From contig OZ024742.1 of NCBI GenBank assembly GCA_964016885.1, positions 332,816,001-332,880,000 on the forward strand: a stretch of 64,000 nt of DNA, given 5' to 3'. The translations under genes were made by a program, and so were the position numbers. Below, one piece after another: positions 27,846 through 42,278 of this stretch. The notes beneath the pieces were generated by a model, which saw only the letters and a list, made by a program, of their open reading frames with translations, made no database searches and had not been told where the DNA came from. Within the stretch, counting starts at the first letter, position 1. The number at the start of each line of letters is the position of its first letter. This stretch comes from Eledone cirrhosa. Its lineage: Eukaryota.

Positions 27846-27986
27846 ATAACGAAGGAAATGTGGTAAGGAACCAGGTGAAACCATAACGCACCAAAGTACT
27901 CAATACTTAGTGTAGTAGAGTGGGTAATAGGAACGAGTAGGACCCCGACGGCTGAGCTCAAGCCGTCGGGGTCCTACTCGTTCTTA
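27846..27986 (-). mobile_element. Fold-back element, family B (copy 2)
   Basis: Same termini as copy 1; ~26-bp arms turning at the loop of hammerhead stem III. Confidence 0.9.
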
Positions 27987-28043
27987 TATATATATATATA
28001 TATATATATATATATATATATATATATATATATATATATATAT

Positions 28044-28168
28044 AGTAATAATAATAAATTTGAAGACTAAAATCCAAAGAGTGCTCGATAAGGATAAATA
28101 TATATCAAATATATAAGAACCGTAGAGCAAATATTTATTATAATAACAGATTAATCTGTTATTTTAAT
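28044..28168 (-). mobile_element. Fold-back element, family A (short copy)
   Basis: Tail, then the turn aataacagattaatctgttatt; (TA)n flanks. Confidence 0.8.
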
Positions 28169-31140
28169 ATATATATATATATATATACATACGTATATAT
28201 ATATATATATATATATATACATTTACATATACATATATCAATACATTTTGATTTATATATGCAAGTATTCATTTCTCTATATATATGTGGATGTGTGTGT
28301 GTGTATGTATAGTGTAGGTCGATACATGATAAAAGTCTCATACACATAAACGAAACTTCATAGTTTTTTAAATATATATATATATTTTAATGTGTGTGTG
28401 TGTGACTATCTGTCCGTTTATCTCTATGACAACATACATTTTCATTGGTTAGTAGGACTATCTAAGAGCTTTCACAATATTTCAAATATATCTACCAACA
28501 GCTCATTAAAAAAGAACTCTACAATACCATGTATTAACATATATCCACGCACACGGCCATTCTTTCATATCCACACTTACAAGGTCATTCCGTTTCTTGA
28601 TTTCGTCGAAAGCAATCGTTTGGAGTCACTTTGTTTACCTTTATGATAGGGCAATAAACAATTATGTTTATATATATATATCAAACAACCACAGTCATTA
28701 CCATATATAACCCAGACGTTCATTGCTAACGAGTAGGATAAACATTTTACTGTCACGTGATTATTGACGTCACAGTTTTCTTTCATATTCTTTCGAAAGT
28801 TCCACGTTTCAACATGGATTATGCACGTAATTGGCTGTTAGCACACACACACACACACACACACACACACACACACACACACACACATACACGCATATAT
28901 ATATATTTATGCATATGTATAAAGTTATTTCTACAAATTTGCTACCATACACGAGGACATGCGTTTCAACCAACGGATTCTCAATACATACATACACCTC
29001 CCTCCACACACACATATATATATCTAATATATATTTGTGAAATGTGTGGTGGTGAAATGGGCGGTGGTTGAAATTCAGATGTGCACGGTTATATGGCAGT
29101 AGACGTGGTCGGACTGACATGAAAATTTACACACCTATGTAACTTGAAAACTGTGGTCCCTGGGGCCCCAAAACTATCGCGTTTGGTGAGCTATTTCCCC
29201 CTGTTCTAATACTTTTGTCTTATTTACAATTTCATACAAATAAAGCAGTAAATAAAGGATTATGAGAAAATATCAACTGTAATGTATGTATGCATGTATT
29301 TATGTGTTTATATGAGCGGGGATATGCAAGTAAATCTTACTTTGTGGACAGCTTATCCTTAGCATAATATTCATGCTAGAACAGCATATATTTGAAAGTT
29401 TTCAGGGAGTTGAATTACTGATTTTGGATCGGCAGCTTTAGCTTTGAAAAAATGAAATGTGCAGTGTAAACATTTTTTACTATTCCTCTGGGGATGAATC
29501 TTCTCTGCATTTTTCCATCCCTTTCTTTCTCTCTGGAAGAAATCAGCCGTAGTAAGACCTAAAAAAATGGTTAGATACACCATGACGCACCGTGAGGTGG
29601 AGTTGAAAAGCAGACTCAGAACATGACGTTGTGTGAGGGTGGTTCGCAGCCCAATGTTCCAGAAGAAGAAGAAGTGAGCTGGAGTCCTATCAAATATGTA
29701 GGTTGTCTTAAATTGAAGGTTTAGTAGAAACAATTCATGTATAGTTTTGTACTTTTCTTTTTGTCATTCATATGTAAACAAATTGGAAGTGGTCGGACGT
29801 TGTATATGTAGGTGTAGTCGGATAAACGTCGAAACGGCTTGGTGGAATGCAGCGAAAATTTACACATTTATGCAGAATGACCCGATGAGGCGTTGGGTCG
29901 ACTTTCAAGCTACAATCTTCGATAGTTACGGAGAAAATCGATAAAACAGGAATTGTCCATTCAAATTGAACTGGGAATAATCTGTGAACGCAGAAGTAAT
30001 TATTTCGAGAAACGGTGCAACCGAACGAAAACAGGAAGACGATATTTTGGTTCGTGAAGACGTTCCCTGGCAATTAACGAGAAAAACGCGAGGATAATAC
30101 GTCGTTATGTGGAGCGTGAAGAACAATTTCATGCAAAGACAAGACCAAGTTTATGGTATAAATGGAGTCGTTAGACTAATATTCTATTAGCCCGGAGTTT
30201 AAGAATGATGTAAATAAAATTGAAAACGAAAATGAAAGAGGTCCATTGGTCCGTCATGCTGACTTTAAATAAAGAGAAGCGTCAGATAGAGAGAAAAGGG
30301 GGAACACCGTGTGTTTTCGAGGTGACAGAGACAGACAGATAAACAGAAAGTTATGACGTCGTCTTCATCTATATAGAGAGAGATGGAATGCCAATCTTAA
30401 GATATGTACATAGATAGAGAGAGAAAAGGGAACACCGTGTGTTTTCGAAATGACAGAAAGAGGTAGATTGACAGAAAGGTATGACGTTACACTTATCTAA
30501 TAGACTATACTATTATATCTGGCTTCTTGCTCTATTTTTTAATTCATATGTACACCTCCGCAACAACGCAGCACGCCATTTTCATCCTATATTTTTTCCC
30601 TTCGCTGTGACCTGTCTTTTTCTCTTCCTTTACTGCTATCCTCTCCCCCTTCTCTCTCCTTGTACCCCTTACTTTCATTCACCCCCTCTGCTAGTAACCC
30701 TCTCTCGGCTAGCCTCTTCCTCACACTTTCACTCACTCACTCTCTGCTACTCACCCTCTCTCACTTCCTTCCGTCTGACCCGTGTGAAATTATATTCTCG
30801 CTCACATTTCCCATGGCTTGGATGCGTCTTTCGTTTCTCGTCAATGATTCACTACATCTTATGTTCACATGTATCACTGACATGTTTTCTCATTTTTCCA
30901 CTCTTTACGTTGCCTCACCATTGTTGTTTGTTTACATGTCTGTCTTTCTCCACCCAATTCTTTTTATCCCAATAACTAAAATAAGTTATTGTTCGCGCTG
31001 GCCTGAGGTATCTGATCTTTAATACGAAGATAGCCAGAAGATCACTGATGATGGATAGTCCTGGCTTCTTGTTCTATTATTTTATATATATATATATATA
31101 TATATATATATATATATATATATATATATATATATATAAA

Positions 31141-39612: not shown

Positions 39613-40624
39613 AGACAGCATGTATATGTGAAGGTATGTATATTTCCTCTGATAATTGGTCATATTTGTACATAGATCTATATGATATACATACCAACAC
39701 ACATATACATCCTAGAAACGATCGTAAAATGATAATTTTTTAATATAAGAAACTTGTTCTTTGTTTTTATTTCATTGTTTTTATTAATTTATATATAAAT
39801 ATATATATATATATATATATATATATATATTATATATTATTTGAAATTTTGAACTATGAACAAAATACGAACATTATTGCGTTTCATTTCATGTTATATT
39901 ATTACTCATTCTCTGTTATATGATCCTTTCCAGGCCATGTCGAAGTAAAAAATGATATTTATTTATTGTGTTCAATTAAAAAACATTATCGTTATTTTGG
40001 GAGTGTTCATTTTTTTTTTTTTTTTCTAATAGTTTCACACACATACACTCATATATATATATATATATATATGACTGTATTTGTGTGTGTGTGTGTGTGT
40101 CTGTCTGTATATATATATTATATATATATATATGTGTGTGCGTGTGTGTGTGTATGTGTGTGTGTATGTGTGTGTGTGTATGTGTGTGTGTGTGTGTGTT
40201 CATTATATTTATAATCTGCCGCAATACCTGTTCTTGTGGTGTTAACAATTAATGTCATGCAACCACCAACTATTTTCATCAGACATGTATTTGAAGTAAT
40301 AATGTTGATATGTACTATATTTACTATAATACATACAGAGATGGACGAATTCAACGTTCTGCACTGTTTACCTGCACTTTCTCTTGGATCACAATCTGTA
40401 GTGTCGGGTGAGAAATGTTGCTGTCCTTTCTCTTATTAAGGTTCTTCCATACTGTATGTCAACACGGCACCCCTGCGACTCCCTCACGAATTACCGGATC
40501 ATATATATATATATATATATATATATATATATATATATATATATATATATATATATATATATATATATATATATATATATATATATATATATATATACAT
40601 ATATGTATACATATATATATATAT

Positions 40625-42067
40625 TTCGTTTTTGAATTTGTTTAGCAAGATTCTTTATCTGAAAACGTGTGTTGAAACCGATATTGTTAGGCTTTGGGAG
40701 GGTCATGTTGCCAATAAGAAACACACGTACCAGTTATATACCATTAATAACAAAGAAAAAATTCTCCATTGCCATTATGCCAAACCCATGACTTCCAAAT
40801 ATCTGATCCACCGAAACTCAGCTCTTTCGGACCATACCAAAATCAACATACTGATTGCGGATTTGGTACGGGTGATGAGAAAGGTGTCCCGCATGTGCAA
40901 CCCCAAAGAACTAGAGACACACATACAACACTTCATCCACCGTATGCAGTTCTCTGGTTACAATCAGAGAGATAAAATCAGAGTATATAGAGCAGCCAGA
41001 ACCAAATGGGAAAAATGGTAAATAATGATACAAATGGGACCTGCCCCTTGTATAGGAGCACATTTTGGAATAGAATAGAAAGAACTAGGAATAAGGTTAA
41101 TAGAATAAACTCATGGTATGATAGCGAATAAATACCAGAGTGAAATGTTCATCGATAGAACCCCTAGAGGTGAATTAGCTTACAAACTTAAAAGGGCCCT
41201 AAATAAAGATAAACTCAATATTAAGATAGTAGAAAGACCAGGTACCTCCATAAAAACACTTATTAGCAATACATACCCTTTTCAAAGACCTCCCTGTATA
41301 GATGAGAAATGTAAAATCTGTAAACTAAGCCCCCATATTAACTGTAAAACTAGAAATGTTGTATATAGCATAAGATGTACTGAAGGACAATGTAGAGATA
41401 AGAATATAGTGTACCTAGGTGAGACAGCTCGTAGTATAGGGGAACGGATAAATGAACACTGGCGAGAGCTTCAAGATAGTAAAGAATTATCTGTACTCCA
41501 CCAACATGCTAAAATAGAACCTAAGGGTAAATTAGAAAATATAGAAATAAAGATAGAATCTACACACAGAAAAGACGCAATGTTTAGACAAATCACAGAG
41601 GCAATAAACATAAATGAACTCCAACCAAAGTTAAATAGAAAACATGAATGGAATAGCAACATCACAACTTACAATTAAGGACAACATGAAAAAACACACA
41701 CACATAGAACAAACAACCAACCAGTAACATGTAAATAAACAAATAAATAAACGAATATAAACACACACAGACACCCGATGTAACACATCCGCAAACTAAG
41801 CACACAACAAAAACAATATGGCGTAGGACAGAACAAAGGAGTGGCACAAAAACAAAGAGAAGAAACCCCAGTCACTGAAGAGGTCACATAATGTGTGACG
41901 AAAGAACTTTGACAATGTATGAACAATCGTCTGGTTGTGGAACCAACAAACCAACCGGAAATTTATAAATTCCTAAATTTATAAATTTAATATATAATAA
42001 ATTGAATTGAAAGCAACTGGTGCGTGTGTTTCTTATTGGCAACATGACCCTCCGAAAGCATAACAAT
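40625..42067 (+). mobile_element. 5'-truncated Penelope-like element (RT thumb + GIY-YIG) with a short inverted arm and tail on the left
   Basis: [69 protein letters not shown]; 40681-40735 is inverted relative to 42015-42067; (TA)n flanks. Confidence 0.9.
41871..41913 (+). ncRNA. Type I hammerhead ribozyme in the PLE 3' region
   Basis: gtca-CTGAAGA-ggtcacat aat gtgtgac-GAAA-gaac-TT-tgac. Confidence 0.8.
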
Positions 42068-42115
42068 ATATATATATATATATATATATATATATATATA
42101 TATATATATATATAT

Positions 42116-42278
42116 ATAACGAAGGTGATGTGGTAAGGAACCAGGTGGACCATAACGCACCAAAGTACTCAATACTATAGGTAGTAGAGTGGGTAATAGG
42201 AACCAGTAAGACCCCGACAGCTGAGCTCAAGCCGTTTCGACGGCTTGAGCTCAGCTGTCGGGGTCTTGCTGGTTCCTA
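42116..42278 (-). mobile_element. Fold-back element, family B (copy 3)
   Basis: Same termini; turn at agccgt-ttcg-acggct. Confidence 0.9.

What the first reader, a model, noticed from the sequence alone, without database searches (positions are those of the whole stretch)
27846..42278. Fold-back turns coincide with the ribozyme's own hairpins
Seen: comparing with the long B copy (42921), copy 2 follows the parent to the end of hammerhead stem III (acggct-gagctca-agccgt) and then continues as the complement of what precedes it. Copy 3 turns at agccgt-TTCG-acggct. Copy 1 (11163) turns at a 2-bp micro-hairpin in the stem II region, and family A (28044) turns at a ttaa palindrome. Inference: RT stalls in the structured ribozyme and the cDNA 3' end primes on itself, so the ribozyme doubles as a second-strand primer.
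Basis: partly seen in the sequence, partly recalled or inferred. Interest (0 to 1): 0.75.

Follow-up and report, generated by a model that had tools for sequence, protein, structure and literature searches.

The report
Penelope hairpins: two primers, not fold-back
These are short head-to-head copies of the end of a very abundant Penelope-like jumping gene that carries a predicted self-cutting RNA; they were likely made by two DNA copies started from opposite sides of the insertion site and then joined, not by one copy folding back on the ribozyme's hairpins.

Summary
The four junctions are as described, and the hammerhead is real: a type I U3-A8 core variant that Rfam misses. The elements are 3' ends of a Hydra-type Penelope-like element inserted in (TA)n (14,096 exact end matches in the genome). 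Each is arm 1 (element position 1 to x) plus an inverted arm 2 (y back to 81).

The fold-back reading fails genome-wide. Hairpin turns like copies 2 and 3 number 206 and 486 against 36,639 arms that read through. Their loops sit on either arm equally (16:14, 15:15). In 65 unbiased two-armed copies, 1 is a clean snap-back, 20 have an arm 2 that reaches 3 or more bases beyond arm 1, and 5 have arms with no shared sequence. The long 'parent' is itself of this impossible type.

Best reading: both target strands prime cDNA on one RNA, one at each of two fixed start sites, and the two cDNAs are end-joined. About 72% of arms stop in a 12-base zone in distal helix II, and a minor class stops at the predicted cut site. 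Architecture and twin start sites are published; head-to-head joining of two cDNAs was not found in my searches.

The parts
42924..43844 (.). Family B copy 4 (long): arm 1 42924-43403 (element positions 1-480) plus inverted arm 2 43402-43844 (about 523 back to 81), 2-nt overlap; flanked by (TA)n. Element RNA sense is the minus strand of arm 1
42924..43003 (-). 80-nt 'tail' (positions 1-80), present on one arm only; lies between the two inferred reverse-transcription start sites (1 and 81)
   Evidence: tail concept from PMC11167929
43016..43109 (-). Type I hammerhead, U3-A8 core variant: stem I 5' strand 43109-43105, core 43104-43098, long helix II, GAAA 43043-43040, stem III with palindromic loop, predicted cut between 43021 and 43020, stem I 3' strand 43020-43016
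43739..43832 (+). Second copy of the hammerhead, in arm 2 of copy 4
43054..43065 (-). Main arm-stop zone (positions 131-142): 3' side of the internal loop and distal hairpin of helix II
43035..43050 (.). Hairpin at which copy 3 turns (positions 112-127); alternative fold, not a helix of the active ribozyme
11166..11351 (.). Family B copy 1: arm 1 positions 1-136, arm 2 132 back to 81, 2-nt overlap; the common genome-wide type
27849..27984 (.). Family B copy 2: arm 1 positions 1-117, arm 2 104 back to 81, 6-nt overlap at stem III; rare type (206 places)
42119..42276 (.). Family B copy 3: arm 1 positions 1-127, arm 2 117 back to 81, 6-nt overlap; rare type (486 places)
28045..28167 (.). Family A copy (related Penelope-like family): arm 1 positions 1-110, arm 2 110 back to about 94, joined at a central 4-nt palindrome with no loop
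6429..6479 (+). Family A hammerhead-like motif (C3-G8 pair, A at position 4) in another family A copy

Best explanation
These are 3'-end insertions of a Penelope-like retroelement in (TA)n, each made of two inverted arms that were likely written as two separate cDNAs and then joined head to head. Shown: one arm begins at element position 1 and the other at 81, either arm can be the longer, both arms carry the same subfamily letters, and junctions are blunt, share 1-3 bases or hold short inserts. Inferred: the element protein, probably a dimer, nicks both strands of the TA run; each 3' end primes reverse transcription on the same RNA, one at each fixed start site; both cDNAs usually end at positions 131-142; their 3' ends are sealed by end joining or a template jump. 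Turns at the 6-bp hairpins are a minority in which the two ends found a longer microhomology (or a later deletion used it). Inferred, less sure: the 131-142 stop is a property of the template molecule, most likely its 5' end (internal promoter or nuclease cut in helix II; about 55%) or a protein clamp on the folded ribozyme (about 35%). The minor stop at 97 is the ribozyme cut or a stall one base before stem III (about even).
For: Identity: RT plus C-terminal GIY-YIG ORF in long copies; 14,096 exact end matches. One start site per arm: 25 of 26 scorable long copies of 39 fetched and 60 of 60 junction-selected copies carry the tail on exactly one arm. Symmetry: x>y 27, x<y 27, x=y 11 of 65; hairpin loops 15:15 and 16:14. 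Arms without shared sequence: L044, L073, L084, L107, L113. No room for a loop in 15 of 66 junctions. Same template: diagnostic sites agree between arms in 47 of 52 copies vs 34% expected from random RNAs. Molecule-level stop: 143 of 199 unselected arms end at 131-142 (one arm counted twice), but only 1 of 30 partner arms of near-full-length copies and 2 of 27 tandem extensions do. The same stop precedes single-arm ends and forward jumps (L032, L088, L096, L127). Independent short-read contigs show the TA junction at position 78-81 and a roughly 20-fold depth fall after the zone. Family A repeats the pattern, including short-arm-1 copies. In vitro, another PLE protein nicks and extends both strands, starts at two sites that bound the tail, is predicted to be a dimer, and does not need ribozyme cleavage (PMC11167929).
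Against: No biochemical or RNA data for this family. One long copy has both arms starting at 81 (L140) and one short copy has both at 1 (L039). In vitro the two strands showed no difference in start site, so strict one-each use is my inference from genomic copies. Copying one RNA twice needs strand displacement, untested here. Short inverted inserts (L068, L090, L099, L120) show that turn-back synthesis happens sometimes. Against a promoter at 138-142: long copies run past it in 21 of 23 tandem extensions that reach the zone, and no specific cap-type extra C was seen (9 of 19 at 138 but 8 of 13 at 133). Against cleavage as the cause of the 97 stop: the subfamily that mostly has a C3-A8 mismatch (7 of 8) shows the same share of ends at 97 (9 of 24 vs 11 of 28; hand tally).
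Confidence: 0.75

Rival explanations
1. One reading: RT stalls in the ribozyme, the single cDNA folds back on a ribozyme hairpin and primes its own second strand.
For: Copies 2 and 3 turn at 6-bp stems; 206 and 486 such places exist; overlap at junctions exceeds chance; short inverted inserts at 4 of 65 junctions; self-priming was proposed in PMC3846280.
Against: Half of the hairpin turns are mirror images that a tail-bearing cDNA cannot make; 1 of 65 unbiased junctions fits; 20 of 65 have arm 2 longer by 3 or more bases; 5 have no shared sequence; stems are under-used as end points (9 of 124 vs 21 expected); gives no reason for the fixed end at 81.
Confidence: 0.07
2. The short palindromes are a non-autonomous family that copies itself as a unit from hairpin RNAs, so junctions are inherited from a few masters.
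For: Short copies dominate; a few junction types recur (139/133 in three to four copies); some inserts look like read-through past an older junction.
Against: Junctions are mostly different within one young subfamily and recur across subfamilies; all four major short haplotypes also occur in long copies; does not explain arm 1 shorter than the tail.
Confidence: 0.08
3. One cDNA folds back fully to position 1, and the endonuclease then removes the tail from one of the two arms during integration ('resolution' of a hairpin intermediate).
For: Could give a tail on either arm and identical arms; endonuclease resolution of the tail was suggested in PMC8557442.
Against: Needs cutting and re-ligation of the already attached arm in half of the cases; cannot give zero-loop or palindrome-centred junctions (15 of 66); the tail is explained in vitro by two start sites.
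Confidence: 0.06
4. For copies 2 and 3 only: they began as ordinary 131-142 palindromes and lost their centre later by slippage between the 6-nt repeats.
For: A palindromic copy holds the 6-mer as direct repeats; such deletions would be symmetric, as seen.
Against: Trimming of two cDNA ends back to a 6-nt microhomology at insertion gives the same product; not separable with these data.
Confidence: 0.35

Closest known systems
Hydra clade of Penelope-like elements (Craig et al. 2021, PMC8557442; includes Hydra-1_Obim from an octopus)
   Same: C-terminal GIY-YIG, DKT motif, CxCX5C linker, no CCHH, CxxC and CxH near the nuclease end, (TA)n target, hammerhead near the 3' end, partial tandems, inverted 5'-truncated copy and one-sided tail.
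   Different: Unit is 3.5 kb (clade 'generally <3 kb'); RWR instead of RWK; tail is 80 nt, not 30-40; hammerhead has a U3-A8 (or C3-A8) core, a 54-nt helix II and a 6-bp stem III rather than the compact C3-G8 motifs listed for the clade.
PAc (Poseidon_Ac) in vitro mechanism (Frangieh et al. 2024, PMC11167929)
   Same: Both strands nicked and extended, two start sites bounding the tail, AT-rich target, ribozyme cleavage not required.
   Different: That work does not report joined inverted products or one-site-per-strand use; it found no RNA ends at the cut site, whereas genomic ends here peak at the predicted site.
Self-priming model for Penelope inverted repeats (Arkhipova et al. 2013, PMC3846280)
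   Different: Here most junctions lack a pre-existing hairpin, loops are symmetric, and palindrome-centred junctions fit annealing of two ends.
L1 twin priming
   Same: Both target ends prime on one RNA and the two cDNAs are joined through microhomology.
   Different: In L1 the second primer starts upstream at a variable site and the two cDNAs cover different RNA parts (an inversion); here the second site is fixed and both cDNAs cover the same part (an inverted repeat).
U3-A8 hammerheads of Schistosoma PLEs (Cervera and de la Pena 2014, PMC4209133)
   Same: U3-A8 covariation, extra nucleotides after position 9, long helix II, G10.1-C11.1 pair, palindromic loop 3.
   Different: Stable 6-bp helix III and a much longer, two-part helix II.

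Membership tests
Penelope-like element (EN+) | Single ORF with RT and GIY-YIG endonuclease | tested here: met
   About 720-aa ORF with YRDD and C-terminal GIY-YIG-type motifs; Pfam GIY-YIG hit is weak, E 0.022, below cut-off
Penelope-like element (EN+) | Partial tandems (pLTR), inverted 5'-truncated copy, one-sided tail | tested here: met
   27 of 39 long loci cross an exact tandem junction; tail on one arm in 25 of 26 scorable
Hydra clade | DKT motif, CxCX5C linker, no CCHH, CxxC and CxH motifs | tested here: met
   Read from the ORF against the description
Hydra clade | RWK motif; length generally under 3 kb | tested here: inconclusive
   RWR; unit 3,536 nt
Hydra clade | (TA)n insertion | tested here: met
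   the sampling pattern itself included the flanking TA
Hydra clade | RT phylogeny groups with Hydra references | not tested
   Only compared by eye with supplement sequences shown
Hammerhead ribozyme, type I | Three helices around the core, with conserved core bases | tested here: met
   Lowest-energy fold is the three-way junction (z only -1.65, 14 of 200 shuffles as good). In 65 copies U4, G5, A6, A8, G10.1, C11.1, A14, A15.1, C17 are invariant and position 7 varies. Copies are close kin, so there is little covariation. No Rfam match
Hammerhead ribozyme, type I | Watson-Crick pair 3-8 | tested here: inconclusive
   U3-A8 in 51 of 65 copies, C3-A8 mismatch in 14, tied to one subfamily
Hammerhead ribozyme, type I | Self-cleavage at NUH | not testable with these tools
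   Indirect only: 20 of 52 ends in 93-104 fall at 97 (test)
cDNA snap-back (self-primed second strand) | Loop on the first-made, tail-bearing arm; arm 2 contained in arm 1; stem of 2 bp or more with loop of 3 nt or more | tested here: not met
   1 of 65 fits; loops 15:15 and 16:14

The most novel reading that the evidence does not exclude
Penelope-like elements integrate by symmetric double priming: a protein dimer primes two cDNAs on one RNA, strictly one from each of two fixed start sites, and the two cDNAs are joined head to head. The hammerhead domain acts as a template boundary (a clamp or processing site in helix II and a cut at its core), much as a boundary element limits telomerase, the sister enzyme. 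This would explain the inverted repeats, the one-sided tail and tens of thousands of MITE-like hairpins in this genome with one mechanism.
Probability: 0.3. Interest if true: 0.75.

Novelty: new variant of a known kind. Interest (0 to 1): 0.48.

Why it matters
How Penelope-like elements make their inverted repeats is named as an open question in PMC8557442, and the steps after priming are called unvalidated in PMC11167929. A family with well over 14,000 young copies gives junction statistics that separate the models: they argue against the published self-priming idea and for joining of two cDNAs, with a one-site-per-strand rule that can be tested in the existing in vitro system. It also adds a hammerhead variant that standard scans miss.

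Tried and rejected
Rfam at gathering and permissive thresholds found no hammerhead; the miRNA-type hits are just long hairpins. My first core searches missed the ribozyme because they required CUGANGA or a short helix II; I first read it as a half ribozyme and corrected this after the alignment. The look-up of sequencing runs listed no RNA holder, so expression and RNA ends were not examined. One search used a stretch inside the ORF to find long copies, so that set is selected for length. A cap-type extra C at the stop zone was not specific. An outer stem joining 78-87 with 132-139 appeared only in folds of the truncated RNA and is not supported by subfamily variants. Initiator-like TTAGT/TCATTT motifs at 138 and 142 are recalled consensus matches, shared with family A, and untested. 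The distal hairpin of helix II is only partly conserved (53-64 of 65 per pair). Assembly artefact was rejected: fixed asymmetric ends, and the same junction in independent contigs. Rows dropped: of the 100 unbiased copies, 33 had no short second arm mapped (single-arm, long or jump copies), L038 was mis-mapped and L039 has two tails, leaving 65, 100 rows collapse to 54 places and 2 adjacent duplicates were dropped; 13 of 39 long loci could not be scored for both ends. The passages of an octopus repeat annotation (PMC13282606) did not mention such hairpins.
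Full report
Setting. The window is G000:C3:332816001-332880000 of a 3.0-Gb, AT-rich animal assembly. Family B has four copies in the window, starting at 11166, 27849, 42119 and 42924, each between (TA)n runs. I number the element from its end at 42924 (position p = 42923 + p). The plus strand there is the cDNA strand; the RNA is the minus strand.

What the element is. [quoted passage not shown] The unit is 3,536 nt, and 27 of 39 long loci cross an exact head-to-tail junction. DKT, a CxCX5C linker, no CCHH and (TA)n targeting match the Hydra clade (PMC8557442 section 11). 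The first 45 letters match exactly at 14,096 places, control 0. Family A is a relative, 45% identical over the nuclease region in one locus.

The ribozyme is real. Rfam finds nothing and my first core scans failed. Aligning subfamilies showed a type I hammerhead at positions 186-93 with a U3-A8 core, a long two-part helix II and a 6-bp stem III with a palindromic loop. It is the lowest-energy fold (z = -1.65, so the energy alone is not proof). Core bases are nearly invariant in 65 copies while position 7 varies. Fourteen of 65 have C3-A8, mostly one subfamily. The U3-A8 variant is described for Schistosoma PLEs (PMC4209133). The hairpin at which copy 3 turns pairs the helix II 3' strand with the helix III 5' strand, so it is a competing fold.

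The observation. But the long copy is itself two-armed, with arm 1 ending at 480 and arm 2 starting near 523. Genome-wide, turns of copy 3's type number 486 and of copy 2's type 206 (the latter misses one subfamily variant), against 36,639 arms that read through both hairpins: a few percent of copies.

Unbiased sample. I took the first 100 matches on contig C1 and mapped both arms. Sixty-five are short two-armed copies with one tail; 33 had no short second arm, and L038 and L039 were set aside. Of 130 arm ends, 99 lie at 131-142; both ends do in 42 copies. Only 9 of 124 ends between 81 and 186 lie in the two 6-bp stems, against 21 if uniform. Junctions: 26 with 0-1 shared bases, 24 with inserts, 11 with 2-3, 4 with 4 or more.

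Why fold-back fails. A cDNA that starts at position 1 and turns back can only copy what it has already made, and must leave a loop on its own arm. Arm 1 is longer in 27 copies, arm 2 in 27, equal in 11; arm 2 exceeds arm 1 by 3 or more bases in 20; in 5 the arms share nothing; 1 is a clean snap-back. Fifteen of 66 junctions leave no room for a loop, including palindrome-centred ones like the family A TTAA. Among 30 copies each of the two hairpin types, the loop lies on the tail arm in 15 and 16 and on the other arm in 15 and 14. The mirror half cannot come from the tail-bearing cDNA.

What fits. One arm starts at 1 and the other at 81 in 25 of 26 scorable long copies and in 60 of 60 junction-selected copies. 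Position 81 follows a 3-base match to the TA target. Diagnostic letters agree between arms in 47 of 52 copies, against 34% for random RNAs. So two cDNAs were likely primed from opposite target strands on one RNA and joined at their 3' ends. A purified PLE protein nicks and extends both strands, starts at two sites that bound the tail, is predicted to be a dimer and needs no ribozyme cleavage (PMC11167929).

Why arms stop at 131-142. 143 of 199 unselected arms end there. The stop also precedes single-arm ends and forward jumps, and contig depth from another run falls about 20-fold after it. It is not a barrier that every passing RT meets: 1 of 30 partner arms of near-full-length copies and 2 of 27 tandem extensions end there. 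It is therefore a property of the template molecule. An RNA 5' end is my first choice: Penelope has an internal promoter in its pLTR (PMC2377424), and an initiator-like TTAGT (consensus recalled) lies at the stop zone in both families. Against this, no cap signature was seen and long copies pass the zone. A protein clamp on helix II is the second choice. In family A the ends spread over 144-163, from loop II to the 5' edge of its hammerhead (21 of 55 arms), so the zone does not map to the same helix in both families.

The minor stop at 97. Among 52 distinct places ending at 93-104, 20 end at 97, the base after the predicted cut (hand tally; P about 2e-9 against uniform). This suggests cleavage in vivo, and an earlier AI note on another genome reports the same (e1-9822609; a lead, not support). 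But 97 is also one base before stem III, and the C3-A8 subfamily shows the same share (9 of 24 vs 11 of 28), so stalling is equally open.

What is known. The inverted copy and one-sided tail are standard PLE features (PMC8557442: abstract, passages, sections 11, 15, 20 and supplement searches seen). Self-priming was proposed in PMC3846280 (passages and Discussion seen). Two start sites are in PMC11167929 (parts 1-3 of 4 read; its supplements not seen and they may bear on strand pairing). PMC4209133: parts 1-2 of 4 read. PMC2377424: passages and section 15. PMC13282606: passages. bioRxiv 10.64898/2026.07.22.740005: abstract and outline only. Searches listed no paper, judged by title and abstract start, that explains PLE inverted repeats as two joined cDNAs; subscription papers are outside this library.

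Verdict. The finding's headline holds for a few percent of copies and its mechanism is not supported. The underlying data are still useful: they favour double priming with head-to-head joining (0.75) and make an open question about PLE integration testable. Interest 0.48.

Noticed in passing
window 17083-21769 (minus strand): A near-full-length Penelope-like element of another clade, with hammerhead cores at both ends about 4.7 kb apart and frameshifted RT and GIY-YIG frames.
   Followed up: no
window 44004-46884: Another two-armed element with inverted arms of about 385 nt and canonical CUGAUGA cores at 44096 (minus) and 46792 (plus); a related pair at 1-2586.
   Followed up: no
window 42450-42860, 25037-25287, 25577-25821: A third two-armed family in (TA)n with a one-sided tail of about 85 nt.
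   Followed up: partly
window 55179-63319 (plus strand): Non-LTR retrotransposon ORFs with RT and a C-terminal zinc-knuckle/REL-like region, one of 1,141 aa.
   Followed up: no
L096:1500-2300 region (G000:C1:27.01 Mb), L088, L254: Copies in which cDNA ends at 135-141, jumps to a site inside the ORF, crosses the tandem junction and ends at the zone again; L096 repeats a 257-nt unit, as from a small circle.
   Followed up: partly
L078, L207: Arms ending at position 141 are followed by an extra A in 11 of 11 cases, twice by a long A run, suggesting repeated slippage on three template U's.
   Followed up: partly
window 48939-49311, 24058-24345, 15909-16145, 39156-39381: Further local inverted repeats of 120-190 nt per arm, of other repeat families.
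   Followed up: no
window 41875, 24935, 14944: Canonical hammerhead-like cores of other PLE families; 14884-15195 and 24684-24995 are a 98% inverted pair 9.5 kb apart.
   Followed up: no
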